DNA of 22,369 nucleotides, from IMG/VR virus record IMGVR_UViG_647533160_000004, positions 1-22,369 of that record. One strand, written 5' to 3'. Each line of letters begins with the position of its first letter. Position 1 is the stretch's first letter. A program made the position numbers and the translations under genes. Shown piece by piece: positions 5,271-19,972 of the stretch. Under the pieces are notes generated by a model. The model had not been told where the DNA came from. It saw only the letters and a list, made by a program, of their open reading frames with translations, and did no database searches. Source of the DNA: a virus (Duplodnaviria > Heunggongvirae > Uroviricota > Caudoviricetes).

Positions 5271-5648
5271 TTACGCAGGTAGGTAAAGATATGATTGTGG
5301 TGGCTTAATATTACTACCTAGAGCAGAGATAGGAATTGGTTCTTTATATCTTTCCACTTCACCAATTTTTATTGCGTAGGCCTTTTCTCTACCTGAATAA
5401 TATGAGTCATAAAATTGCTTAGAAATACCTGCGTGTTTTTCCGTCTTTTTCCAAAGAGATTCCGGTTCGTCACTTAGTATTGATTCAATACGGAATTGAC
5501 CAACAACTTTACCTAATGGCATCGTGGCATAAATAACAACGGTGCTAATTTGCGGATTTTTGAATATACCTTTACGAAACTCGAACCGCTTTGTTCCGTT
5601 CAATATTTTTTCTGCAAACTCAGGCTTAATGGATAATAAAACTTTCAT
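5271..5648 (-). CDS. ASCH-domain protein (PUA-like fold), 125 aa
   Basis: N-terminal MKVLLSIKPEFAEKILNGTKRFEFRKG carries the ASCH signature G-x-K-x-x-E-x-R. AT-rich; overlaps the upstream gene by 23 nt, suggesting translational coupling. Confidence 0.7.
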   Translation of the reverse strand: MKVLLSIKPEFAEKILNGTKRFEFRKGIFKNPQISTVVIYATMPLGKVVGQFRIESILSDEPESLWKKTEKHAGISKQFYDSYYSGREKAYAIKIGEVERYKEPIPISALGSNIKPPQSYLYLPA

Positions 5649-6699
5649 TTATCTTGCCTAACTCGATGATCTTTAAGAACTGCTCATTTGTGAGTTTAAA
5701 GTGACTCCATCGGAATGCACGCGAACCATTTAGCCCCACATGATCTATTAAAATAGCACGATTGGGTCTCTTTGGCAAAGACAGATTGTATGTGAATCTT
5801 ATAATGAAAGGGTATCGACGTTCTTTATAGATTTTTCTGAGTTCATCTTCAGAAAATACGCTAAAACGAATACAATAGTCTACAAAACTATCTTCGCTTA
5901 AAAATTCAGAAATATTTTTTACGCTCTCAACTACACATAATGTACTGGCTACAGAACGATAGCGAGCTGGCCCTTTTTTGTCTCCGGTTCTATAGATGAC
6001 AATGATATCTCCTCTTTTCATTCCCATCACAGAACGCATTCCACATATGTAAATTTTATGAATGCTGTTAGCATGGGATATATCTTTGACAATATCTGGT
6101 GATTCATTTACAAGTTTTGAATCAGGGAATAGTCTAGTGTGATATTCGGGATAAATCGCCAGTAAATATTTGTTGGCCCTTGATGTCATTATTCGAGGGT
6201 AATCTAATAAAATATCACCATAAGGCTCATGCAAAGACCTCGCATATACAAACTCTTTCCCGTTATGTGTTTCTTTTTCACCATGAATGTAAAATCCGTA
6301 CGTTTGGAAAAGTTTTATTAGATGGACGTGTTTGTCGAAAACAGTAACATAAATATCATCAGATTTTGATGAAAATGCATGGTCAAACGCTTTTTTTAGA
6401 AATCGTTGTCCGCGAAGGGTGCCTTTAGATTCAAATTTGAATGTTCCTATCTTTAGATGACGTCCTGGTGGGAGCGCTGGATTAATGTCATTTGCATCAT
6501 CATTTTCTTTTAGATACATAAAACCTTCGATTTTATGCTTGTCATCATAGAGCACATAAGCTGATTCTCCTTCTCTGGCTTTTTTTTCTAACCAAAGAGG
6601 AAACTCTTTATAATCTTTTTTTAAAGAGTCAAAAAATGGGTCATTGTGATCAAAATCAGAGAATTTCTCATATTTTAAAGTATCCATTAAGTTCTCCAT
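5626..6699 (-). CDS. Two-domain cargo protein: N-terminal GNAT-like acetyltransferase region plus C-terminal possible PUA-like region (357 aa; alternative start at 6687)
   Basis: AT-rich ORF directly downstream of cI on the same strand. Residues ~40-160 (...AYVLYDD...KIGTFKFESKGTLRGQRFLKKAFDHAFS...IYVTVFDKHVHLIKLFQTYGFY...) resemble a GNAT fold; domain calls are by eye and unverified. The second ATG has a GGAG Shine-Dalgarno 6 nt upstream. Confidence 0.55.
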   Translation of the reverse strand: MENLMDTLKYEKFSDFDHNDPFFDSLKKDYKEFPLWLEKKAREGESAYVLYDDKHKIEGFMYLKENDDANDINPALPPGRHLKIGTFKFESKGTLRGQRFLKKAFDHAFSSKSDDIYVTVFDKHVHLIKLFQTYGFYIHGEKETHNGKEFVYARSLHEPYGDILLDYPRIMTSRANKYLLAIYPEYHTRLFPDSKLVNESPDIVKDISHANSIHKIYICGMRSVMGMKRGDIIVIYRTGDKKGPARYRSVASTLCVVESVKNISEFLSEDSFVDYCIRFSVFSEDELRKIYKERRYPFIIRFTYNLSLPKRPNRAILIDHVGLNGSRAFRWSHFKLTNEQFLKIIELGKINESFIIH

Positions 6700-7822: not shown

Positions 7823-8368
7823 ATGACTATGCAACCACTTACATACCAACAGACTAGCGGATTTAGCCCGACTGCGGTGATAAATCGTTCTCAAACAAAA
7901 CAGGCGCCAGGCCACGAAAAAATCCGTGATGCCGTTCGCGCCTGGTCGGCTGCAGATAATCAGGATGTTGTTGCCGCACTCATTGTGAATGAGTATCGGG
8001 AGCAGGGCGGCGGCACCATCGATTTCCCTGATGATGTCAGCCGTGCACGCCAGAAGCTGTTCCGCTTCCTCGATAACAAATTCGATTCTGAAAAATACCG
8101 AAATAACGTGCGTGAACTGACCCCGGCAATTCTGGCGGTACTACCGCTGGAATATCGCGGCCACCTGGTTGAGCAGGATAGCTTCATGGCTCGGCTGGCT
8201 GAAATGGAAAAGGAACTCAGTGAGGCAAAACAGGCTGTCATTCTCAACGCACCACGCCACCAGAAACTGAAGGAGATGAGTGAAGGCATTGTGTCGATGT
8301 TTCGTGTGGACCCGGATCTGGCTGGTCCACTGATGGCGATGGTCACCACCATGCTGGGGGCAATATGA
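7823..8368 (+). CDS. Hypothetical early-right protein in the cII position (181 aa)
   Basis: ORF between cro and O on the same strand; no recognised catalytic motif. Functional role inferred from position only. Confidence 0.5.
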   Translation: MTMQPLTYQQTSGFSPTAVINRSQTKQAPGHEKIRDAVRAWSAADNQDVVAALIVNEYREQGGGTIDFPDDVSRARQKLFRFLDNKFDSEKYRNNVRELTPAILAVLPLEYRGHLVEQDSFMARLAEMEKELSEAKQAVILNAPRHQKLKEMSEGIVSMFRVDPDLAGPLMAMVTTMLGAI

Positions 8369-8454
8369 CAGGTTCGGAAATGGCGAAAGCCGGTCTGCGC
8401 GAACAGAACCGACTTTCAGGTGCAAATCGTAACACACTCATTGCGGGAGGAATT

Positions 8455-9384
8455 ATGGCAAACACTGCTGAGATATTCAATTTTCCAGTGCCGGATGTGG
8501 CACAAAAGGAGCCGCGCGTGGCAGATCTCGATGATGGTTATACGCGCATTGCAAATGAGTTGCTGGAAGCTGTGATGCTGGCCGGATTAACACAGCACCA
8601 GCTTCTGGTCTTCCTGGCTGTCATGCGCAAAACATATGGCTTTAATAAAAAACTGGATTGGGTGAGCAACGAGCAACTTTCCGAGTTGACCGGGATATTG
8701 CCGCACAAGTGTTCTGCTGCAAAAAGCGTTCTGGTAAAGCGTGGGATTCTTATTCAGAGCGGGCGAAATATCGGCATTAATAATGTGGTCAGTGAATGGT
8801 CAACATTACCCGAATCAGGTAAGAAAAATAAAGTTTACCTGAAAGAGGTAAATTTACCTGAATCAGGTAAGAAAAGTTTACCCAAATCAGGTAAAGGCGT
8901 TTACCCGAATCAGGTAAACACAAAAGACAAACTAACAAAAGACAATATAAAACCTTTTTCGTCCGAGAATTCTGGCGAATCCTCTGACCAACCAGAAAAC
9001 GATCTTCCTGTGGTGAAACCGGATGCTGCAATTCAGAGCGGCAGCAGGTGGGGGACAGCAGAAGACCTGACCGCCGCAGAGTGGATGTTTGACATGGTGA
9101 AGACCATCGCGCCATCAGCCAGAAAACCGAATTTTGCAGGGTGGGCTAACGATATCCGCCTGATGCGTGAACGTGACGGACGTAACCACCGCGACATGTG
9201 CGTGCTGTTCCGCTGGGCATGCCAGGACAACTTCTGGTCCGGTAACGTGCTAAGTCCGGCCAAACTTCGCGACAAGTGGACCCAACTCGAAATCAACCGT
9301 AACAAGCAACAGGCTGGCGTGACAGCCGGAAAATCAAAACTCGACCTGACAAACACTGACTGGATTTATGGGGTGGATTTGTGA
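8455..9384 (+). CDS. O: Replication initiator O-like protein with embedded ori iterons (309 aa from ATG at 8455; track ORF begins at 8365)
   Basis: GGAGG 4 nt upstream of ATG 8455; the iteron array followed by an AT-rich tract lies inside the coding region as in lambda O; immediately followed by P. The coding sequence across the iterons is a repeated ...LPESGKK... segment. Confidence 0.85.
   Translation: MANTAEIFNFPVPDVAQKEPRVADLDDGYTRIANELLEAVMLAGLTQHQLLVFLAVMRKTYGFNKKLDWVSNEQLSELTGILPHKCSAAKSVLVKRGILIQSGRNIGINNVVSEWSTLPESGKKNKVYLKEVNLPESGKKSLPKSGKGVYPNQVNTKDKLTKDNIKPFSSENSGESSDQPENDLPVVKPDAAIQSGSRWGTAEDLTAAEWMFDMVKTIAPSARKPNFAGWANDIRLMRERDGRNHRDMCVLFRWACQDNFWSGNVLSPAKLRDKWTQLEINRNKQQAGVTAGKSKLDLTNTDWIYGVDL
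8806..8917. repeat. Origin of replication iterons: five copies of an about 17-bp palindromic TTACCYGAATCAGGTAA unit
   Basis: Copies at 8806..8822, 8835..8851 (degenerate), 8854..8870, 8878..8894 and 8901..8917, followed by the AT-rich stretch acacaaaagacaaactaacaaaagacaatataaaacc. Confidence 0.85.
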
Positions 9385-10748: not shown

Positions 10749-12167
10749 TTAGAAAATAATGTTTGCTATATCCGAGATAGCATTTAAAGAACCTCTGTGG
10801 TCACTTCCTGTTTTAGGTAAAATATAGGAATATCGAGGGTCTTCATTATATGTTAACTTCCAGTGTTTTCCATCGCTTGACGCACTAAAACCTAAGTCCT
10901 TTAAACTTCTTTGTGTTGCGCTATCCATGCTTCTGTACCCTGTTAAAGTCCTTTTAAGTAATTGGCGGCGACTCTCGGTTTCTTTATTGTATTTATTATT
11001 GGCAATTAGGGATGATAAGATATGATAGCTTCTACCAAATTCATTTTTGTTTTTTATGGCAGTTTTTAGTGCGTCAATAATTATATTTTTGATTTCTCCA
11101 TCAAAAAAGTCAGTCTCTTCACCTGCATTAAGCACAATGCTTCCTTGGGCTGAAGCTTGTGATTGAAGAGTGCGTACTCTGTGCTCTAAAGCGGAGATCT
11201 TATGCTTAAGATCTTCTATTTGGTCATCTTTCGCAACATTATCGGCTTCGTAAAGCGCCATCAGTTCGCGTGTGTATTCTCCTCTTTCTTTGAGTGAGTT
11301 AATAGAATCTTTCGTTTTTCTGGTTTGTATCTCACTCCATCCACTATCTGAGACAGGAGCCATTGTAGTCGTAGCTCTTACAACATCATCAAATAACTCA
11401 TCTTCAAATTCTTTTGCGGTTTTCTCACCACGGCGATAAAAACTGATATTTTGACCTCGTGGCCAATAGATACCAACAGCACCAGCATAGGCATTTTTAG
11501 CATTTGTCTCATTTTTTAGCTTAATAGAAAATAGTCTATTGCTAGGCTCAATTAATACATGTGCTAATCCGCATACCTTTCTTGCAAGGCGTTCTGGGAT
11601 GATATTGTGAGCATGTTCATTGAAAAAATACTTGGAGCTAACGTATATTATTGGTAGTCTGTTGTCAGTTTCACCATTTATAACTTTAGCTGCTATATTT
11701 AAATGTTCATCAGTATCATCTAAGGAATGAGGTTCGACTGACACCTTGAAAATATCATCAAGACCACCAGAAAATTTATCAATCAATCTCATAACAACCA
11801 ATGGTTTCTTGGGTTGTGGGGCTAGATAAGCTGCATCTTGGCTTACAACGCTAGATTCCACCTGAATCCACATGGTATCAGTTTTGAGATTTTTATTAAT
11901 TGAAATATCTGTTACCCATTTGTGTGGCTCAGATATTTTCGAATACCTAAAACAGCCTAAACTAGTATCTTTGTTTTTATAAGTTATTATATCAATTCTT
12001 TCATTTTTAGACTCTATGAAGTGCTCCTCGCTTTTATAATCACATACTAATTGTGCTGGAATAAAAGTTGTATGTGGTGAGTCGTTTACCCAAGAAAAAC
12101 ATTCATTAAAGATCTCAGCTAGAGATGTGGAATTTGAAACATAAAAACCAGTTGAGAAATATTTCAT
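10749..12167 (-). CDS. Orphan 472-aa cargo protein, predicted cytoplasmic, with a C-terminal coiled-coil-like region; function unknown
   Basis: Long uninterrupted AT-rich ORF; AAGGA Shine-Dalgarno 6 nt upstream of the ATG at 12165..12167. No Walker or obvious nuclease motifs by eye. Heptad-like charged region ...EDLKHKISALEHRVRTLQSQ... Inserted between ren and the NinB-like ORF. Confidence 0.7.
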   Translation of the reverse strand: MKYFSTGFYVSNSTSLAEIFNECFSWVNDSPHTTFIPAQLVCDYKSEEHFIESKNERIDIITYKNKDTSLGCFRYSKISEPHKWVTDISINKNLKTDTMWIQVESSVVSQDAAYLAPQPKKPLVVMRLIDKFSGGLDDIFKVSVEPHSLDDTDEHLNIAAKVINGETDNRLPIIYVSSKYFFNEHAHNIIPERLARKVCGLAHVLIEPSNRLFSIKLKNETNAKNAYAGAVGIYWPRGQNISFYRRGEKTAKEFEDELFDDVVRATTTMAPVSDSGWSEIQTRKTKDSINSLKERGEYTRELMALYEADNVAKDDQIEDLKHKISALEHRVRTLQSQASAQGSIVLNAGEETDFFDGEIKNIIIDALKTAIKNKNEFGRSYHILSSLIANNKYNKETESRRQLLKRTLTGYRSMDSATQRSLKDLGFSASSDGKHWKLTYNEDPRYSYILPKTGSDHRGSLNAISDIANIIF

Positions 12168-12871: not shown

Positions 12872-14269
12872 TTGTGGGGTTGTCATAATGGCACTGGCTG
12901 GTTGCCATTAGCTGTTGGGCAAGGAGGTACAGGTGCGACAACAGTAGAAGATGCGCGAAACAACTTAAGTCTTGGCGAAAGTAGCGCAGTTAAATTTAAA
13001 AACCTTACTTTAACCGAAGCGCTCGACGTGACATTAGGACTGCTTACAAAAACAGGACGAGACTGGAACACGCAGCATACTGATAACATTAATAAATTTA
13101 TACCAATTGCAGGCAGTACAAACGGCCCGGCAGGTTCTATGGTTCTTGGCGGCATTCATGTTCAATTTAGTAAAAATTATGCTGTGCAGTTCGGAGGCCG
13201 CAATTCCGGTTTTTGGGGAAGAACAATTGAAAATGGAACGACGCAGGAATGGAAGAAATTACTAACAGTAGACGATCTCAATTCATCTACCGATCTTGCT
13301 GTCAGGTCATTAACCACATCTAACCCGGTAAAATCTGGCGGAGGGCGAATTGATGTCCTTGGAAGCACGTCAGACTATAGCAAAATGGATTGCTTTGTAC
13401 GTGGGTTTGATAGCACCGGTAATTCTCTCGTGTGGGCGTTGGGTTCATCAGTCGGCGTAAGTAAGATGCTATCGCTAAAAAATTTCTTTAGCGGAGCTGA
13501 GATACTGTTAAATGGTAATGACGGCGCGGTTCAACTCAAAACAGGTGCTGTTAACGGGGCTACAGCGCAGACGCTCACTATCAACAAGAATGAGGTTAAC
13601 TCAACCGTTGATTTAACCCTTACAAAGCAATCAGGGACTGGTAATCGTTTTGTTTTACAGAACTCAGGTAATGCAGAACTACCGTTTTCTGTCAGGGGGT
13701 GGGGTTCCAGTACTCGACAAAACGTTTTTGAGGTTGGAACGTCTGCTGCGTATCTGTTTTATGCGCAAAAAACGTCAGCAGGCCAGTTGTTTGATGTAAA
13801 TGGCGCTATTAATTGCACAACGCTGAATCAGTCATCAGACCGCGACCTTAAAGACGATATTCTCGTTATCAGCGACGCGACGAAAGCAATCCGTAAAATG
13901 AACGGATACACCTACACGCTCAAGGAAAACGGGATGCCTTATGCTGGCGTTATTGCACAGGAAGTAATGGAGGCGATACCAGAAGCTGTGGGATCGTTTA
14001 CTCATTATGGTGAAGAGTTGCAAGGTCCGACCGTTGACGGCAACGAGCTACGCGAAGAAACTCGCTATCTTAATGTTGACTACTCCGCCGTGACGGGTTT
14101 ACTTGTTCAGGTCGCCCGTGAAACAGATGATCGCGTTACCGCGCTGGAAGAGGAAAACACAACGCTACGTCAAAATCTGGCAACAGCAGGCACCCGGATC
14201 AGCACTCTGGAAAATCAGGTAAGCGAACTGGTTGCACTTGTCCGGCAGTTAACAGGAAGCGAACATTGA
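12872..14269 (+). CDS. stf: Side tail fibre protein, C-terminal portion with a self-cleaving intramolecular chaperone domain (465 aa; N-terminus lost, TTG start in track)
   Basis: Gly/Thr/Ser/Asn-rich fibre-like sequence (...GQGGTGATTVEDARNNLSLG...). C-terminal domain from 13832 has the chaperone-of-endosialidase pattern SDRDLKDD...GYTYTLKENGMPYAGVIAQEVMEAIPEAV...YLNVDYSAVTGLLVQVARE..., recognised from memory of that family. The frame is open upstream without an ATG. Confidence 0.8.
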   Translation: MWGCHNGTGWLPLAVGQGGTGATTVEDARNNLSLGESSAVKFKNLTLTEALDVTLGLLTKTGRDWNTQHTDNINKFIPIAGSTNGPAGSMVLGGIHVQFSKNYAVQFGGRNSGFWGRTIENGTTQEWKKLLTVDDLNSSTDLAVRSLTTSNPVKSGGGRIDVLGSTSDYSKMDCFVRGFDSTGNSLVWALGSSVGVSKMLSLKNFFSGAEILLNGNDGAVQLKTGAVNGATAQTLTINKNEVNSTVDLTLTKQSGTGNRFVLQNSGNAELPFSVRGWGSSTRQNVFEVGTSAAYLFYAQKTSAGQLFDVNGAINCTTLNQSSDRDLKDDILVISDATKAIRKMNGYTYTLKENGMPYAGVIAQEVMEAIPEAVGSFTHYGEELQGPTVDGNELREETRYLNVDYSAVTGLLVQVARETDDRVTALEEENTTLRQNLATAGTRISTLENQVSELVALVRQLTGSEH

Positions 14270-14308
14270 TATCCTTCAAGCCCTGAAGGAGGCTGTTCCT
14301 GGTACGTT

Positions 14309-14440
14309 CAGACTGTTGCTGAGCTGGAGATCGCAACGGAGGAAGAGAAAGCGTTTCTGGCCGCATGGAAAACATATCGGGTATTGCTGAACCGTGTTGA
14401 TACAGTAAACCCCGTCTGGCCTCCACCTTCGAAGCGATAG
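14309..14440 (+). pseudogene. tfa: Remnant of the 3' end of a tail fibre assembly gene (tfa)
   Basis: Translation ...[40 protein letters not shown]... resembles the lambda Tfa C-terminal motif (...[30 protein letters not shown]...). No start codon or N-terminal part is present. Confidence 0.6.
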
Positions 14441-14744
14441 CCCAGCAACTCCTAAATAGCTGCGCATAATACCGCTACACCTGCCGTTTTACTGACATTT
14501 GGAATATTGCGTGAGGGCAACATATCGAGGGGCAGATATAGCTCGGTCAAATAGAAAAACAGCCCCACTATTTACCATGCAATAGCTGGTCAAAAGGAGA
14601 GCACTATTCCGCTCCGCGTAGTATTTTGTGTTTATAGTGATAACTTAGGTAATGCTTAGTCACTAAGATACTTTGCTATTGGAGAGCGATTTATAATGTG
14701 GGCGCAACAGATTTTTACTATTGCGCCACTTGCTCTTGTGAGTA

Positions 14745-15833
14745 CTATTCGCTATAAGTTAATGTTGGTTTTGAAAGTCTTTTGGATATTGTTTTTCCGA
14801 TATTAATGAATGGAGTTTCAATATATTTATAAATAAAGAATGATAAGAACAAGCTAAGAGCAATAATGAATGAAAACTTAGAGAACCCAGGTTTTTCATA
14901 AAGCGGAATGAAATCCTTAAAATTAATTAAAAATAGCATTACTATCGCATGGGATAAATACAGAGAGTAAGAGATATCACCTAGCTTACTGAGTATTTTA
15001 TTTTCCCTTAATCCGAAGTTAACTTCATAAAGTAAAACTCCCGTAATTATGGAGGCTGCCCACAATCCGAAGTTTAAAGGGCCATGACCAAATCTGAATT
15101 GATAAAAATATGAGCAAACACCAAATGAAACCAAAAGGAATGATATCGCCTTTGCGTTTTTTATATATTTAAATTTTCTGTGTATTATATACAGAAACAT
15201 CCCATAAACGAATTCTAACAGCATGGGTGATGACATTAAGTTTAGAAAGCCAATATGCCAATGACCTGTATCACCAATCGTAAACTTACTTGATAGAGAA
15301 AGGCTGTTGGAAAATTTCAACTGTATGAGAAGTAGCGGGACTATCAATGCAATAACTGATATTAATAATCTGTTTTTATGGCTCAGCGATATTGCAAGCA
15401 TAAAAATGAAATAAAAATAGACTTCAAAGGTTAATGTCCATGCTGGATAAAGCACGTTGTATCCGAAGAATGGCGCTTCTGAATAATAGTCCAGGTGAAG
15501 CAGAAACAATGAACGCAATAATTCACTTTCGGTGAAGACTGGGTTCAATAAAAAGAATAAGATTGTGCAAATGAAAAATACAGGGTAAATCCTGAAAAAA
15601 CGCCTGGTCATAAAGTTAATAGGGGAATTTGTTTCTTTTTTTTGACTCGATAACATTATTATAAATCCACTTATAATAAAAAACAGATCAACCCCAAAAC
15701 CACCACTAATAAACAATAAATCACCTAGATCTTTTTGTGCGTAAACTTCATTTAGGTATTGTTTATTGTGATATGCAACAACGAGTAATGCTGCTACACC
15801 TCGCAAATAGTGAATTGATTTTACCTTCTTCAT
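14745..15833 (-). CDS. Acyltransferase-3 family integral membrane protein (OafA/Oac-like), putative O-antigen/LPS acetyltransferase (362 aa)
   Basis: Very AT-rich, highly hydrophobic ORF with about 10 predicted transmembrane segments and N-terminal ...YLRGVAALLVVAYH...GVDLFFIISGFII... typical of acyltransferase family 3. Confidence 0.8.
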   Translation of the reverse strand: MKKVKSIHYLRGVAALLVVAYHNKQYLNEVYAQKDLGDLLFISGGFGVDLFFIISGFIIMLSSQKKETNSPINFMTRRFFRIYPVFFICTILFFLLNPVFTESELLRSLFLLHLDYYSEAPFFGYNVLYPAWTLTFEVYFYFIFMLAISLSHKNRLLISVIALIVPLLLIQLKFSNSLSLSSKFTIGDTGHWHIGFLNLMSSPMLLEFVYGMFLYIIHRKFKYIKNAKAISFLLVSFGVCSYFYQFRFGHGPLNFGLWAASIITGVLLYEVNFGLRENKILSKLGDISYSLYLSHAIVMLFLINFKDFIPLYEKPGFSKFSFIIALSLFLSFFIYKYIETPFINIGKTISKRLSKPTLTYSE

Positions 15834-16048
15834 TTTTATATAATCACTGTTCCAATTTTTTTTATTTTACAAACAATTCTATCTAGCTCATTAGTACTCA
15901 AAGTCAGATTGGTAGCAACAAAAAAACAAGATATGTGATGACATGGCGCGGGGCTCAGAACCACTCGTGTATTTTCGCCACTGGCTATGACTGGCTGCAC
16001 CTGCAAGATCTGCCATTTGTGTGCCAGTATACCCAAGCTCTGACTTTA

Positions 16049-16548
16049 TGTTTACCAGATCCTCTGGAGTGCCGGGGAGTATAATCGTTGATTAATCGAA
16101 TCTGCAACTATTTCAGAACGACCTAGGTTAAAGTGCGCTCTGCAGTCTCTTATATAAGGTGATACTTTAATTGTCTGGAAACTGGACAGGTTAGGAAGGA
16201 GCAGGAAACATCTTATTATACTTACCGAGTAGCTGCGGGTAAGGGGGGGATTTCCGTAGCCTGACAGGTAACATTGACACGTCAACATCGATGGTTTTTT
16301 TTATTTTTCCATGTGATGGAGCCCTGGTTGAAATGAAGCGTGAACTGATTGATGACTGAACAAAAGTTGGACTGGAAGATGCTCGCGCACAGGGAGGAAT
16401 TGGTGGACGTCGTCCTAAACTTACATCAGAACAATGGGCGCAGGCCGGGCGATTAATTGCATCAAAAGTCCCGCGTCAGAAGGTGGCGATCATCTATGAT
16501 ATTGGTGTATCGACTTTATATAAGAGGTTTCCAGCCAGGATTATATAA
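16049..16548 (+). pseudogene. pin: Decayed serine DNA invertase gene (Pin/Gin/Hin family) with frameshifts and in-frame stops
   Basis: Fragments in shifting frames: ...VWKLDRLGRS..., ...ALVEMKRELIDD(stop)TKVGLEDARAQGGIGGRRPKLTSEQWAQAGRLIASKVPRQKVAIIYDIGVSTLYKRFPA... The C-terminal HTH is intact; the catalytic N-terminal half is disrupted. Confidence 0.7.
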
Positions 16549-16871: not shown

Positions 16872-18854
16872 TTGCTCAACAAGTATAATGGAGTTCCCGT
16901 GGATACAGCAGAACATGATGGCAAATTTGCTTGGGCTAGTTTTTATGAGGCTTTTGCCAACGCGTTACTGACTTGGCGAAATCGTAGAGATGAATTAGTC
17001 AAAGGTATTCATCTAATTGCCTCAGGTGTGGAAGGAATGTCCCATCTGCAGGACAAATCTATTATGGGAGAGATCTTTCCCTTAAAAGACATTTGTCCGT
17101 TTACTACTATGGGCTTGTTCAATCGTAACTTGACCGATAGCAATCGCAAAATTATTGCTGCCAAGCTAGCGAATTTGTTGGGCGTGAACGAACCGATTCC
17201 TGACTCCTTTGCCGGAATCCCGCTGTTGAATAACCAAAAATCTTGGTTCTTTGGTTATGAAAAGTCACGCGACCCTAATGACATTGAATGCTTGTGGGAA
17301 ATGTTCTCGCAGGCAATGACCTTTGCGGATAACCAGAATACTAACTCTGCAGACTTCACTGCCGCATATGACATTGCTTCTACAGTAATGAATGTCGGTT
17401 GGAATCTCACCATGGGGTTGTACTGGACCCGTCCTTGGTTCTACCCTACTTTAGATAGCCAGTCGCAGTATTACATTCAGACAGTGTTAAACATTAAGAT
17501 CATTAAAAACGGGGCAAAAGGTCGCTGTAGTGGACAAAGTTACCTGAGTCTTATGCGGGCGCTGAACGAGGTCTTTACCCAACCAAACTATCCGGTTCAT
17601 TCTTTCCCAGAACTTTCTTTATCAGCGTGGAATACAGATCTTAGCCAGTCTAAAGATGAGGTGGCAAATAGAACGTGGAAAGCCTCTTTACTGAATAAAA
17701 TTAAGGCGTTATGCCTGAAAAAAAATGGCCCTTATTTCACTGCTTCGGAGTTGGAAGAAAACTACTTGGACGTATTCAAGGTAGAGCATCCTGAGAGCAA
17801 AACAGTTACAAGCTCAATCTACTTTTATCTACAGAAACTATGCAATGATGATGAGTTAAAGTCCCTTGAGTCCGGAAATTATGAATACCTGAATTTTGAG
17901 AAAAACGAATCCCAGACGATAACTGAGGAAACTGTCGAAGAGAGTGCGCCGTTGCCAAAACTCACTCACGTTCCTTATGACATCAGTCATCTGGTGCAGG
18001 ATGGCTGTTTCTTGGAAGAGGCTAAGATCCAACTCACACTTCAGCGCCTGATCGACAAGAAAAACCTGATATTACAAGGACCACCCGGAACTGGAAAAAC
18101 CTGGTTAGCGCGACGTCTGGCGTACTGCTTGATGGGAGAAAAAGCACCTGAGCGTATTAGCGCGGTGCAATTTCACCCGAACCTCTCTTACGAAGACTTT
18201 ATTCGCGGCTGGCGTCCAGGTAAAGAAGGGCAATTGACGCTAATTGATGGACCTTTTGTAAATGCAATCAAAACTGCAGTCAATAATCCTACCTCGAAAT
18301 ATGTGGTGATAATTGAAGAGATTAATCGTGGCAATCCGGCGCAAATCTTCGGTGAAACACTCACGTTGATGGAAGCAGATAAACGCACGCCGACTGAGGC
18401 ATTATCTCTTTCCTATCCTAAAAATGATGATGAAAAAATATACATTCCTGAGAATCTATATATCATCGGTACGATGAATATTGCAGACCGCTCACTCGCA
18501 CTACTTGACCTAGCGCTGCGCCGTCGTTTCGCGTTTATCGATCTAAAGCCAGCTTTTAATGACGCGTGGAGAAACTGGGTAAATTATAATTACGCAATTG
18601 ATTTTGACATGTTAGCATTCATCAAATCTCGACTGACGGTACTTAACGATATGCTGGCAAAAGATGTTACCTTAGGACCACAGTTTTGTATCGGTCACAG
18701 CTATGTCACCCCAGCTATCGGCCAAAAAATCAACGATGCCCAGGCTTGGTATGAACAAGTCGTTGATACAGAGATCTGCCCTTTGCTCGCCGAATATTGG
18801 TTCGATGCTCCAAATAAAGTCGATGAAGCCAGAAAAGTGTTATTAGCAAAATGA
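16872..18854 (+). CDS. McrB-like AAA+ GTPase with a long (~390 aa) unassigned N-terminal region (660 aa; alternative GTG start at 16899)
   Basis: C-terminal module has Walker A LQGPPGTGKTW, Walker B VVIIEEINRG and the McrB-type motif IGTMNIADRS. The N-terminal ~390 aa show no motif I can assign. GGAG lies 5 nt upstream of the GTG at 16899. Confidence 0.85.
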   Translation: MLNKYNGVPVDTAEHDGKFAWASFYEAFANALLTWRNRRDELVKGIHLIASGVEGMSHLQDKSIMGEIFPLKDICPFTTMGLFNRNLTDSNRKIIAAKLANLLGVNEPIPDSFAGIPLLNNQKSWFFGYEKSRDPNDIECLWEMFSQAMTFADNQNTNSADFTAAYDIASTVMNVGWNLTMGLYWTRPWFYPTLDSQSQYYIQTVLNIKIIKNGAKGRCSGQSYLSLMRALNEVFTQPNYPVHSFPELSLSAWNTDLSQSKDEVANRTWKASLLNKIKALCLKKNGPYFTASELEENYLDVFKVEHPESKTVTSSIYFYLQKLCNDDELKSLESGNYEYLNFEKNESQTITEETVEESAPLPKLTHVPYDISHLVQDGCFLEEAKIQLTLQRLIDKKNLILQGPPGTGKTWLARRLAYCLMGEKAPERISAVQFHPNLSYEDFIRGWRPGKEGQLTLIDGPFVNAIKTAVNNPTSKYVVIIEEINRGNPAQIFGETLTLMEADKRTPTEALSLSYPKNDDEKIYIPENLYIIGTMNIADRSLALLDLALRRRFAFIDLKPAFNDAWRNWVNYNYAIDFDMLAFIKSRLTVLNDMLAKDVTLGPQFCIGHSYVTPAIGQKINDAQAWYEQVVDTEICPLLAEYWFDAPNKVDEARKVLLAK

Positions 18855-19972
18855 CGACAATAACCGGGAGTGAGCAACATACAGCATCACGTATTCCCAT
18901 GCGAAATATCTGGATGCTGATGCTGTACGCTTCAGATCTGTTTCGTCAGTTAGGGCGCAATCAGATCGCAGTAGAAGATAACCCAGCAGAAATCCCCGAC
19001 CTGGTGGCGACAATCCTCCTTCATGAGATTACGCTGCGCCGACGTCGCAATTTAAATATGGGATACCAAACTTGTCATGCGGCCCTGAACCGGGTGAGAG
19101 GGCGCATTGACATACTGTATACTGCCAGTCATCAACTACTGGAACGGGGACAGGTTGCCTGCCATTTTCAAGACATAACCCTCAACACCCCCCGAAATCG
19201 CTATGTTCGCTGTGCGTTAGAACGTCTGGCCTCAATCATAGTGAAACCGTCTTTGGCGGCAGATTGCCATTTTATGGCAATATCACTTCGCCGTGAGGGG
19301 ATAAATGGAGGATATCCTGCCCCCCACGAATTACCCTCAGTGTGGCGTTTTGGACGCCATGATGCCGCAGATAAACCGATGGTCGATGCCGCACGATTAG
19401 CTTTTGAACTGCTGATGCCGACCGAAGATCAAGGCCAATATCTTTTACCTGCGCCCTCAAATAACCTTTACTGGATGAGAAGACTATTTGAAAAAGGTAT
19501 CGCTGGCTTATATCGTGTACACCTTGCCAAAACAACTTGGCAGGTCTCTGCAGGGAAAGAGCTGAAATGGGCGTTGAGCGATCAAAGTGCAGGTAGTGCA
19601 GAGATTTTCCCGACAATGAAGTCAGACATTATTCTGGAACACAAGACTGCCCAGCGGCGTATTATTATCGATACCAAATTTAATTCGATTCTGACAAAGG
19701 GTTGGCATCGGGAGCAATCACTACGTAATGGCTATATTTATCAGCTATATACCTACCTTAGAACACAGGAGAACAAGACGGATCCGCTTTCGCTCAATGC
19801 CGCTGGTCTTCTACTTCATCCAGCTGTTGGCTATATGCTTAATGAGTATGTTGTCACTCAGGGACATAAGATCCATTTTGCTACAGTAGATATGACGGTA
19901 GATGCTAAAGCAATTAAAAAACAATTGCTGGCAATAGCCCATGATTGTGCAGGAGTCGCGGTTGATGACTAA
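18851..19972 (+). CDS. McrC-like endonuclease subunit (PD-(D/E)xK), 373 aa
   Basis: Start overlaps the McrB-like stop (ATGA, 18851..18854). C-terminal ...KSDIILEHK...RRIIIDTKF... fits a PD-(D/E)xK nuclease core; size and pairing are as in McrBC systems. Confidence 0.8.
   Translation: MTTITGSEQHTASRIPMRNIWMLMLYASDLFRQLGRNQIAVEDNPAEIPDLVATILLHEITLRRRRNLNMGYQTCHAALNRVRGRIDILYTASHQLLERGQVACHFQDITLNTPRNRYVRCALERLASIIVKPSLAADCHFMAISLRREGINGGYPAPHELPSVWRFGRHDAADKPMVDAARLAFELLMPTEDQGQYLLPAPSNNLYWMRRLFEKGIAGLYRVHLAKTTWQVSAGKELKWALSDQSAGSAEIFPTMKSDIILEHKTAQRRIIIDTKFNSILTKGWHREQSLRNGYIYQLYTYLRTQENKTDPLSLNAAGLLLHPAVGYMLNEYVVTQGHKIHFATVDMTVDAKAIKKQLLAIAHDCAGVAVDD

What the first reader, a model, noticed from the sequence alone, without database searches (positions are those of the whole stretch)
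14441..16048. Acyltransferase-3 membrane protein inserted between the tail-fibre genes and a dead pin invertase
A very AT-rich gene for a polytopic acyltransferase-3 protein lies on the opposite strand inside what was an invertible fibre segment. This family includes phage-encoded O-antigen acetyltransferases that change serotype and block superinfection. This would be a lysogenic-conversion or receptor-masking function maintained in a prophage that can no longer make virions.
Basis: partly seen in the sequence, partly recalled or inferred. Interest (0 to 1): 0.5.

Follow-up and report, generated by a model that had tools for sequence, protein, structure and literature searches.

The report
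Prophage surface-sugar acetyltransferase beside tail fibre
A decayed E. coli prophage carries an intact gene for a membrane acetyltransferase of the kind phages use to alter the host's surface sugars; this is an ordinary type of phage cargo, but here it tracks strains that make the O8 mannose surface polymer.

Summary
Window 14745-15833 (- strand) is an intact 362-aa acyltransferase-3 (AT3) gene of 32% GC. It lies between a truncated side-tail-fibre gene plus a tfa remnant and a dead pin invertase, in a lambdoid prophage at icd that has no virion genes.

It is an AT3-only protein with 10 transmembrane helices and all family motifs. Relatives at 40-54% identity sit beside phage tailspike or tail-fibre genes, next to gtrABC, or inside an O-antigen cluster. 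The best explanation is a lysogenic-conversion O-acetyltransferase of a surface polysaccharide, analogous to Sf6 Oac but not orthologous to it.

- The gene arrived as a roughly 1.7-kb cassette with a now frameshifted small upstream gene. The cassette replaced pin's first 35 codons.
- No invertible-segment hallmarks remain.
- "Maintained" holds only in part. Forty-two of 5,426 complete E. coli genomes carry the gene, 16 of the 40 carrier copies assessed are broken, and about 200 related prophages have lost it.
- Carriers are 27-fold enriched for the O8 polymannan cluster. Copies are mostly intact in O8 hosts (19/24) and mostly broken elsewhere (5/16).

Verdict: a new member of a known kind, of moderate-to-low interest, with a testable O8 lead.

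The parts
12872..14269 (+). N-terminally truncated side tail fibre gene (C-terminal 465 aa, with a Peptidase_S74 intramolecular-chaperone domain). It is convergent with the AT3 gene.
   Evidence: Pfam PF13884 E=6.5e-13. PHROG 6578 tail fibre, profile positions 795-1210 of 1210. PGAP annotates it as 'missing N-terminus'. It is full length (1,091 aa) in the near-complete prophage of CV839-06. It is 86% identical to the Stf of lambdoid phage mEp460.
14270..14440 (+). 3' remnant of a tail-fibre-assembly (tfa) gene. Homology to other tfa genes stops at about 14410, which is the left junction of the cassette.
   Evidence: Positions 14270-14404 match tfa genes in more than 2,000 E. coli genomes at 82-94% identity. 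PGAP annotates it as 'tail fiber assembly protein, missing N-terminus'. The same remnant follows the same stf type in another prophage that carries different cargo.
14411..14744 (-). 3' flank of the cassette. It contains a stable hairpin (14698-14729) 16 nt after the AT3 stop codon, which may act as a terminator or stabiliser but has no U-tract. It also contains a 165-nt stretch (14448-14612) that is 74% similar to DNA beside an ISEc1/Rhs locus.
   Evidence: At 99% identity or more it is found only in AT3 carriers. The hairpin has dG -20.6 kcal/mol and z = -4.0 against shuffles. The consensus scan found no terminator.
14745..15833 (-). Intact AT3-only acyltransferase gene (362 aa, 10 transmembrane helices). 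It is the putative O-acetyltransferase of a surface polysaccharide.
   Evidence: The motifs R11-X10-H22, F51-F52-x-I54-S55-G56 and R78-x-x-R81, and residues W132, E137, S288, Y292 and E339, are all retained.
15842..16101 (-). Pseudogene of a small (87-aa) gene that precedes and overlaps the AT3 gene in the closest Serratia prophage relatives (PHROG 20491, weak Xre-like HTH). Here the start codon is lost and there are two frameshifts.
   Evidence: tblastn of the L007/L005 87-aa proteins: residues 1-9 at 16101-16075 (frame -3), residues 9-64 at 16076-15909 (frame -1; 73% identity, E=4.5e-29), residues 45-86 at 15982-15842 (frame -2).
16101..16548 (+). pin (Din-family serine invertase) pseudogene. 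It lacks codons 1-35 and has three internal stops and a frameshift. Its truncation point coincides with the right end of the cassette.
   Evidence: tblastn against K-12 PinE. PGAP annotates it as 'frameshifted; internal stop; missing N-terminus'. It is 75% DNA identity to K-12 pinE.

Best explanation
The gene encodes an AT3-only transmembrane acyltransferase. By analogy with characterised family members, it would take an acetyl group from cytoplasmic acetyl-CoA through its 10-helix pore and place it on a surface polysaccharide at the periplasmic face. It is phage cargo (a moron). It entered a lambdoid phage that integrates at icd as a roughly 1.7-kb, low-GC cassette (small HTH-like gene + AT3), immediately downstream of and convergent with the side-tail-fibre gene. 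The insertion replaced the end of tfa, whatever lay between tfa and pin, and the first 35 codons of pin.

Its most likely role is lysogenic conversion. Acetylating the host glycan would stop phages with a similar receptor-binding fibre from adsorbing, and it would alter antigenicity. The most likely acceptor is an O-antigen, and in these hosts probably the O8 polymannan.

Shown: family membership, intact motifs, cassette boundaries, position, distribution, decay pattern and the O8 association. Inferred: the donor, the acceptor, expression and the phage-exclusion phenotype.
For: Family and integrity. Pfam, PHROG and motif evidence, plus a high-confidence 10-helix model whose only PDB neighbours are the acetyl-CoA-dependent transmembrane acetyltransferase HGSNAT. 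The motif definitions come from PMC7448272 and PMC9558356.

Context of relatives:
- Serratia and metagenome relatives at 52-54% identity sit beside Gp53-like fibre and baseplate genes in prophages.
- An E. coli relative at 48% identity sits beside a 735-aa neighbouring gene (tailspike-sized, no Pfam hit, not tested) and lysis genes.
- An E. coli relative at 42% identity sits between a P22-type tailspike and integrase, the same slot as Sf6 oac.
- A Salmonella relative lies inside an O-antigen cluster.
- An Erwinia relative lies next to gtrA-gtrB-gtrC.

Viral contigs. The IMG/VR scan found 430 relatives. In 51 contigs of 30 kb or more, 80% of the genes lie within 5 kb of a contig end, against 24% expected. 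In 16 of 20 loci a 620-860-aa ORF lies directly adjacent, and 10 of 10 tested are PHROG tail spike or fibre proteins. Low GC is a family trait: in 16 of 16 loci the gene is 5-22 points below its surroundings.

The same right end (stf - tfa' - AT3 - pin' - mcrBC-like) is present in a near-complete prophage, so the cassette predates the big deletion.

Selection. Intact alleles carry 7 synonymous and 7 non-synonymous unique changes, pN/pS 0.27, binomial p=0.017.

O8 link. Twenty-four of 40 carriers hold O8 wzt against 280 of 5,386 non-carriers (OR 27, p=1e-20). The gene is intact in 19 of 24 O8 hosts against 5 of 16 non-O8 hosts (p=0.004; p=0.02 with obvious clones collapsed).
Against: - No biochemical or phenotypic data exist.
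- AT3 proteins acylate many different glycans, so the family alone does not name the acceptor (PMC9558356).
- Similarity to the characterised phage enzyme Sf6 Oac is low: 29% over the N-terminal half. The best hit in 50,697 phage genomes is 36%.
- As far as I know, the O8 polymannan has not been reported to be O-acetylated. It is made by the ABC-transporter route, for which AT3 modification in E. coli is undocumented.
- The upstream partner gene is a pseudogene and the native promoter region is missing. Promoter-like sites are no more frequent than in shuffles.
- Sixteen of the 40 assessed copies are broken, and about 200 related prophages have lost the gene while keeping the McrBC-like genes.
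- The O8 association may reflect shared ancestry. The AT3-less relatives also appear to be O8, and intactness of 8 copies rests on annotation only.
Confidence: 0.65

Rival explanations
1. The enzyme is active but acylates a different envelope glycan: the Wzy-dependent polysaccharide encoded at galF-gnd (a group-4 K antigen in O8 strains), colanic acid, ECA, LPS core or periplasmic glucans. The O8 link would then be indirect.
For: AT3 acceptors are very diverse (PMC9558356). All three O8 carriers inspected also have a second, Wzy-type cluster at galF-gnd (O155-, O133- and O104-family) plus colanic acid genes. One neighbouring tailspike of a relative matches a 'colanic acid degradation' family (protein 3). 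One relative lies in a non-phage island with a GDSL lipase.
Against: The second clusters differ between carriers while O8 is the shared feature. Only 2 of the 40 carriers have the O155-family wzy. Most contexts of relatives point to O-antigen modification modules (gtrABC, an O-antigen cluster, tailspikes).
Confidence: 0.18
2. The gene is a silent or neutral passenger. It is an intact-looking relic that is no longer expressed or useful, is decaying along with the prophage, and was carried to its present frequency by linkage to the retained McrBC-like defence genes and by clonal descent in O8 lineages.
For: The upstream cassette gene is frameshifted and the native promoter region is absent. There is no significant promoter signal. 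At least 7 independent inactivating lesions are seen: IS1, IS3 and IS5 insertions, a 1-bp deletion, two frameshift blocks and several 3' truncations. About 200 genomes keep pin'-mcrBC but lost the AT3 gene through an IS1-bounded deletion ending 34 nt upstream of its ATG. Allele J31 changes the invariant E339 and allele ET745 changes the near-invariant G12.
Against: The window copy keeps every invariant residue. pN/pS is 0.27 among intact alleles. Disruptions are concentrated in non-O8 hosts, which fits conditional selection better than uniform neutrality.
Confidence: 0.15
3. The AT3 protein acts on a non-carbohydrate or non-surface substrate, for example a small molecule or lipid. It would then have nothing to do with phage receptors.
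For: Some AT3 family members acylate antibiotics or other small molecules (family knowledge; PMC9833829 abstract).
Against: Every informative context of relatives involves a surface polysaccharide or a phage receptor-binding protein. No biosynthetic cluster lies nearby.
Confidence: 0.02

Closest known systems
Oac (OacA) of Shigella phage Sf6, the serotype-converting O-antigen O-acetyltransferase
   Same: It is an AT3-only protein of about 330-360 aa with the R-X10-H, FFxISG and RXXR motifs. Its gene lies immediately downstream of and convergent with the receptor-binding protein gene, near the prophage end, with its own hairpin after the stop codon. The expected logic is the same: acetylate the glycan the phage binds, and so block superinfection (PMC9558356).
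   Different: Identity is only 29% over the N-terminal 186 residues and the C-terminal half does not align. The host phage is a lambdoid siphovirus with a side tail fibre, not a P22-like podovirus with an endorhamnosidase tailspike. The neighbour on the other side is a dead pin invertase plus McrBC-like genes, not an integrase. The acceptor is unknown.
Uncharacterised prophage AT3 genes of Serratia (P0003, P0005) and a metagenome contig (P0002)
   Same: These are the closest sequences outside E. coli (52-54% identity, same length). They lie beside tail-fibre and baseplate genes on the opposite strand and are low in GC. P0002 and P0005 have the same small upstream gene overlapping the AT3 start.
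   Different: They sit in Mu-like or myovirus-type tail modules. Their upstream gene is intact. Nothing is known about their function either.
WbaK-type AT3-only acetyltransferases at the end of Salmonella O-antigen clusters
   Same: They have AT3-only architecture. A 44%-identical Salmonella relative (P0086) sits at the gnd-proximal end of an O-antigen cluster next to an IS element. WbaK is described as an AT3-only O-antigen acetyltransferase inserted at the end of its cluster (PMC9558356).
   Different: They lie in the chromosomal O-antigen locus, not in a prophage. I did not compare with WbaK itself.
OafA/OafB (Salmonella) and OatA: AT3-SGNH fused acetyltransferases
   Same: They share the AT3 domain motifs and the presumed acetyl-CoA relay across the membrane. 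OafB is also phage-associated and protects against phage BTP1.
   Different: The window protein has no 11th helix and no SGNH domain. It ends 20 residues after helix 10.
Pin/Gin/Cin invertible tail-fibre segments (e14 P segment, Mu G segment)
   Same: A pin homologue lies downstream of stf and tfa, as in K-12 e14.
   Different: Here pin is dead and 5'-truncated. No crossover sites, no inverted repeats and no second inverted fibre/tfa set remain. Apart from pin (75% DNA identity) and the attachment region, this prophage shares nothing with K-12 e14.

Membership tests
Acyltransferase-3 (AT3, PF01757) transmembrane acyltransferases | Full-length match to the family profile above the curated threshold | tested here: met
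   PF01757 E=2.6e-34, 119.2 bits against a cutoff of 31, profile positions 2-325 of 326. PHROG 3333 E=2e-71.
Acyltransferase-3 (AT3, PF01757) transmembrane acyltransferases | Ten transmembrane helices | tested here: met
   Hydropathy peaks. The AF2 model has pLDDT 94.3, with helices at 5-22, 36-62, 71-96, 129-150, 155-175, 203-218, 227-244, 255-273, 288-304 and 317-354.
Acyltransferase-3 (AT3, PF01757) transmembrane acyltransferases | R/K-X10-H motif in helix 1 (catalytic His), FFxISG in helix 2, and RXXR in the 2-3 loop | tested here: met
   R11...H22, F51-F52-I53-I54-S55-G56 and R78-F-F-R81 are present. F51, F52, I54, S55, G56, R78 and R81 are invariant across both the 22- and the 114-sequence alignments; R11 and H22 are invariant in the 22-sequence alignment and at least 90% conserved in the 114-sequence one. 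Motif definitions are from PMC7448272.
Acyltransferase-3 (AT3, PF01757) transmembrane acyltransferases | TmAT fold shared with HGSNAT | tested here: inconclusive
   The best PDB hits are human HGSNAT (8vlu, 8jkv, 8vkj): Foldseek probability 0.98-1.0, but E about 0.02-0.03 and TM 0.35-0.44. No AT3 structure has been solved. The relationship is described in PMC12423673.
Acyltransferase-3 (AT3, PF01757) transmembrane acyltransferases | Acyl-CoA-dependent acylation of an extracytoplasmic acceptor | not testable with these tools
   This needs biochemistry or genetics.
AT3-SGNH fused O-acetyltransferases (OafA, OafB, OatA) | An 11th helix plus a C-terminal periplasmic SGNH domain | tested here: not met
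   The protein is 362 aa, has no second Pfam domain, and ends shortly after helix 10.
Phage serotype-converting AT3-only O-antigen acetyltransferases (Sf6 Oac type) | AT3-only gene carried by a temperate phage next to its receptor-binding protein gene | tested here: met
   The gene is convergent with stf in the prophage at icd. The arrangement matches Sf6 tailspike-oac and 10 of 10 tested viral-contig relatives.
Phage serotype-converting AT3-only O-antigen acetyltransferases (Sf6 Oac type) | Orthology to a characterised Oac | tested here: not met
   Identity to Sf6 Oac is 29% over 186 residues, E=7e-10, N-terminal half only. No phage-genome hit exceeds 36%.
Phage serotype-converting AT3-only O-antigen acetyltransferases (Sf6 Oac type) | Gene-dependent O-acetylation of the host O-antigen and exclusion of the cognate phage | not testable with these tools
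   There is only indirect support: the O8 enrichment and the O8-linked intactness.
Din-family (Pin/Gin) invertible tail-fibre segment | Functional serine invertase | tested here: not met
   Residues 1-35 are missing, and there are three stops and one frameshift.
Din-family (Pin/Gin) invertible tail-fibre segment | Pair of inverted crossover sites (AAACCnnGGTTT core) flanking the segment | tested here: not met
   There is one 1-mismatch hit, inside the AT3 gene, against 1.1 expected by chance. No credible inverted repeat spans the region.
Din-family (Pin/Gin) invertible tail-fibre segment | Two oppositely oriented alternative fibre-tip/tfa gene sets | tested here: not met
   Only one tfa 3' remnant is present, in the + orientation. 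Nothing fibre-like is found on the - strand between 14411 and 16101.

The most novel reading that the evidence does not exclude
The AT3 enzyme O-acetylates the E. coli O8 polymannan, an O-antigen made by the ABC-transporter route and, as far as I know, not reported to be acetylated. The ancestral icd phage used its S74-type side fibre to bind that polymannan, as the T5 L-shaped fibre does. The cassette would then be a previously unrecognised serotype-conversion and superinfection-exclusion module specific to O8 strains. It would be kept where O8 is made and would decay where it is not.
Probability: 0.25. Interest if true: 0.55.

Novelty: new member of a known kind. Interest (0 to 1): 0.35.

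Why it matters
Phage-borne AT3 acetyltransferases change serotype, vaccine epitopes and phage susceptibility in Shigella and Salmonella. Comparable E. coli examples are few (phiV10 on O157). If this gene acetylates the O8 polymannan or its companion K antigen, it would explain antigenic and phage-typing heterogeneity within O8 strains, which include livestock ETEC isolates among the carriers listed here. It would also matter for choosing therapeutic phages that depend on O8. The locus further shows how a degraded prophage is whittled down unevenly: the McrBC-like defence genes persist, while the receptor-modifying gene survives mainly where its presumed substrate exists.

Tried and rejected
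- Invertible-segment relics. The search for crossover-site cores and inverted repeats found nothing beyond chance. I therefore do not endorse 'inside an invertible segment' as shown.
- K-12 e14 as a template. Only pin (75% identity) and the att region are shared, so this is a different icd prophage.
- My first reading by eye of 15990-16100 as the pin N-terminus was wrong. tblastn shows this stretch is the - strand relic of the cassette's small upstream gene.
- PDB by sequence gave no hit. PDB by fold gave only weak HGSNAT matches. BFVD gave one unnamed hit.
- NCBIfam and PADLOC gave no informative hit for the AT3 protein.
- The promoter and terminator scan was no better than shuffles.
- O155-family wzy as the linked antigen was rejected. 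Only 5 genomes have it, and 2 of them are carriers.
- The first estimate of within-species dN/dS, from 7 alleles, was uninformative. It was resolved only after adding 8 more alleles.
- The literature searches found no paper on this icd prophage variant or its AT3 gene. The search for ST410 with O8:H9 returned nothing, so my recollection that the AT3-less lineage is ST410 stays unverified.
Full report
**1. What is there**

The window is E. coli DNA. Positions 14200-16400 are 100% identical to strain VCSW7. The annotated record shows a lambdoid prophage inserted in icd, in this order: int, xis, exo-bet-gam, kil, repressor/cro, replication genes. A deletion scar then joins a truncated ybcN to the last third of a side-tail-fibre gene. 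After that come a tfa fragment, the acyltransferase on the opposite strand, a pin pseudogene, an McrB-like/McrC pair and the icd' duplication. There are no head, tail-shaft or lysis genes, so this copy cannot form virions.

The ORF 14745-15833 (-) encodes 362 aa. The evidence that it is an AT3 protein:
- It matches Pfam Acyl_transf_3 end to end (E=2.6e-34) and PHROG 3333 'O-acetyltransferase' (E=2e-71).
- Its GC content is 32.3% against 43% for the window.
- Hydropathy and an AlphaFold2 model (pLDDT 94.3, pTM 0.92) give ten membrane helices and no extra domain.
- No solved structure matches by sequence. By fold the only meaningful PDB neighbours are human HGSNAT, a transmembrane acetyl-CoA-dependent acetyltransferase, at weak scores. 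This fits the published TmAT superfamily idea (PMC12423673).

In alignments of 22 and 114 relatives the window protein keeps every invariant position. These include the R11-X10-H22, FFxISG (51-56) and R78-x-x-R81 motifs, which mutagenesis of Oac, OafA and OafB showed to be essential (PMC7448272 and PMC9558356).

**2. Anatomy of the insertion**

Left junction. DNA similarity to tfa genes of other E. coli prophages runs from 14270 to about 14410 and then stops.

Right junction. Similarity to PinE begins at 16101, at PinE residue 36. It continues to the end of the gene with three in-frame stops and one frameshift.

Between these points:
- The stretch 15842-16101 on the - strand is not pin. It is a relic of an 87-aa gene (PHROG 20491, unknown function, weak Xre-like HTH). 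In the closest relatives (Serratia fonticola and a metagenome contig) this gene lies directly upstream of the AT3 gene and overlaps its start.
- In the window the relic has lost its start codon and carries two frameshifts. Its middle part is still 73% identical at the protein level (E=4.5e-29).
- The foreign block is therefore a two-gene cassette of about 1.7 kb (14411-16101). Its arrival removed the last few tfa codons, everything between tfa and pin, and the first 35 pin codons, which include the catalytic serine.
- A strong hairpin follows the AT3 stop codon (dG -20.6 kcal/mol, z -4.0).
- The intergenic region that lies upstream of the small gene in Serratia is not present here. Promoter-like sites are no more frequent than in shuffled sequence. 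Expression is therefore an open question.

I found no crossover-site core and no flanking inverted repeats. No inverted second fibre/tfa set is present either. That the cassette sits 'inside a former invertible segment' is a reasonable guess from tfa' and pin', but it is not demonstrated.

The same S74-type stf plus the same short tfa remnant occur in another prophage followed by an AraC-type gene. The related Stf of the viable lambdoid phage mEp460 is followed by dinI and int. The position downstream of stf is thus a general cargo slot.

**3. What relatives say about function**

The large protein database holds one cluster identical to the window protein (364 member sequences). After that, nothing closer than 54% identity appears. 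Among 50,697 phage genomes the best match is 36%, and Sf6 Oac aligns at 29% over the N-terminal half only.

Contexts of eight relatives at 42-54% identity:
- Three are in prophages beside Gp53-like fibre and baseplate genes.
- One E. coli prophage copy sits beside a 735-aa gene (tailspike-sized, no Pfam hit, not tested) and the lysis genes.
- One E. coli P22-like prophage copy sits between tailspike and integrase, exactly the Sf6 oac slot.
- One Salmonella copy sits at the gnd end of an O-antigen cluster.
- One Erwinia copy sits next to gtrA-gtrB-gtrC.
- One sits in a non-phage island with a GDSL lipase and a second AT3 gene.

A scan of IMG/VR found 430 viral-contig relatives. In the 51 contigs of 30 kb or more, 80% of the genes lie within 5 kb of a contig end, against 24% expected for random placement. 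In 16 of 20 loci inspected a 620-860-aa ORF lies directly next to the AT3 gene. All 10 that I tested are PHROG tail-spike or tail-fibre proteins.

Low GC is a trait of the family. In 16 of 16 loci the gene is 5-22 points below its neighbourhood.

This pattern is that of the known phage serotype-conversion acetyltransferases (PMC9558356). I therefore read the gene as a lysogenic-conversion O-acetyltransferase of a surface polysaccharide. The chemistry and the phenotype are inferred, not shown.

**4. Is it maintained?**

The gene occurs in 42 of 5,426 complete E. coli genomes, always on the chromosome and always at 95% identity or more (99% or more in 40 of the 42). A near-complete prophage in strain CV839-06 has the same stf - tfa' - AT3 - pin' - mcrBC-like right end. 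The cassette and the dead pin therefore predate the large deletion seen in the window.

Among 13 sequenced intact alleles there are 7 synonymous and 7 non-synonymous unique changes. This gives pN/pS 0.27, with binomial p=0.017 against neutrality.

Against that, 16 of the 40 carrier copies assessed (the 40 carriers listed) are broken. The lesions include IS1, IS3 and IS5 insertions, a 1-bp deletion, two frameshift blocks and several 3' truncations, and they represent at least seven independent events. About 200 further genomes carry the same pin'-mcrBC-like remnant but lack the gene. In these, an IS1-bounded deletion ends 34 nt upstream of the AT3 start codon. They may be one heavily sampled clone.

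**5. An unexpected association with O8**

The host of the window has two O-polysaccharide loci: an O155-family Wzx/Wzy cluster at galF-gnd, and an O8-family polymannan wzm/wzt cluster between wzz and his. Carriers A23 and MRE162 have the same layout with different first clusters, O133- and O104-family respectively.

- O8 wzm-wzt is present in 308 of 5,426 genomes.
- A chimeric query (AT3 cassette + 700 nt of O8 wzt) listed 40 carriers (two of the 42 genomes hold only a 46-nt remnant). Of these, 24 also contain O8 wzt, against 280 of 5,386 non-carriers. The odds ratio is 27 and p=1e-20.
- Reading a second match in a genome as O8 was confirmed wherever I checked it, in seven strains.
- The gene is intact in 19 of 24 O8 hosts but in only 5 of 16 non-O8 hosts. 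Fisher p=0.004, or 0.02 after collapsing obvious clones.

Caveats. Strains are not independent. Members of the AT3-less lineage that I could cross-check are also O8, so the whole prophage lineage is tied to O8 hosts. Eight 'intact' calls rest on annotation alone.

Two readings fit. The first is vertical descent within O8 lineages. The second is a phage whose S74-type fibre binds polymannan, as the T5 L-shaped fibre does (PMC4690869), and whose cargo gene modifies that same receptor. The fibre tip here is 86% identical to mEp460 Stf and about 40% identical to lateral fibres of T5-like and rV5-like phages. That is suggestive, but it says nothing about specificity.

**6. Comparison with what is known, and verdict**

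The protein is a member of the AT3 family, in the AT3-only architecture. It is not an AT3-SGNH fusion and not an orthologue of any characterised Oac. It works like Sf6 Oac in genomic logic. Nothing here is a new kind of system. It is a new, uncharacterised member, carried in an E. coli icd prophage for which I found no published description.

The added value of this analysis lies in four points: the exact cassette structure, the evidence that pin was truncated at the cassette's right junction, the quantified decay, and the O8 lead. Overall interest is moderate to low. The O8-specific serotype-conversion reading is the most novel one not excluded, at about 25% probability.

Noticed in passing
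window 5271-6687 (- strand): Two adjacent genes in a low-GC block match the PADLOC candidate defence system PDC-M11. The 353-aa protein matches M11A (E=2.9e-133). The 125-aa ASCH-domain protein matches M11B (E=6.8e-52).
   Followed up: partly
window 16872-19972 (+ strand): An McrBC-like pair. McrC is canonical (NCBIfam E=2.9e-106). The 660-aa McrB-like protein shares only its AAA_5 GTPase half with K-12 McrB; its N-terminal 343 aa (16872-17900), the part tested, have no Pfam hit, so it may recognise a different DNA modification. The adjacent pin' remnant is kept in about 240 E. coli genomes, including those that lost the AT3 gene, and the pair itself was present in the representatives inspected.
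   Followed up: partly
window 10749-12167 (- strand): A low-GC 472-aa ORF with no Pfam family and only a weak match to the PADLOC candidate HEC-07 (E=1.2e-9). It may be another defence-type cargo gene.
   Followed up: no
window 15842-16101 (- strand); L005 553-816; L007 1980-2243: A small 87-aa gene (PHROG 20491, unknown function, weak Xre-like HTH) precedes and overlaps the AT3 gene in Serratia-type prophages. In the window it is a frameshifted relic without a start codon. Its middle part is more conserved (73% aa) than the AT3 protein itself (52%).
   Followed up: yes
window 14448-14612; L029 6001-6165: A 165-nt stretch downstream of the AT3 gene is 74% similar to DNA beside an ISEc1 (ISAs1-family) element at an Rhs/T6SS locus in 86 E. 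coli genomes. A Salmonella relative of the AT3 gene also has an ISAs1-type transposase next to it. This may be a trace of how the cassette moved.
   Followed up: partly
L112 (VCSW7 1815001-1845000), L114 (A23), L115 (MRE162): The host strains carry two O-polysaccharide loci: a Wzx/Wzy cluster at galF-gnd (O155-, O133- or O104-family) and an O8 polymannan ABC-transporter cluster between wzz and his, plus a colanic acid cluster seen in VCSW7 and A23 (not checked in MRE162). In VCSW7 the O155-family wzx and an acetyltransferase gene lie beyond gnd.
   Followed up: partly
L011 (WCHEC020031) 8293-9001: In about 200 genomes an IS1 joins a truncated replication gene directly to a point 34 nt upstream of the AT3 start codon. 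This deletes the 472-aa gene, stf', tfa' and the AT3 gene but keeps pin' and the McrBC-like genes. It is probably one expanded clone, and the members checked are O8.
   Followed up: partly
L006 5749-7623, L007 1-1862, L002 4079-7938: In the Serratia relatives the AT3 gene lies between the fibre gene and a 621-703-aa protein. In L006/L007 that protein has a faint GDSL/SGNH-esterase signal, and in L002 there is a neighbouring polysaccharide deacetylase. Phages may pair a deacetylating tail protein with an acetylating conversion gene.
   Followed up: no
L110 1728-5180; L116 2670-6278: The S74-type side tail fibre with the same 132-nt tfa relic occurs in another lambdoid prophage at bioA, followed by an AraC-family gene. 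A related Stf occurs in the viable phage mEp460, followed by dinI and int. The site downstream of stf is therefore a recurrent cargo slot.
   Followed up: yes
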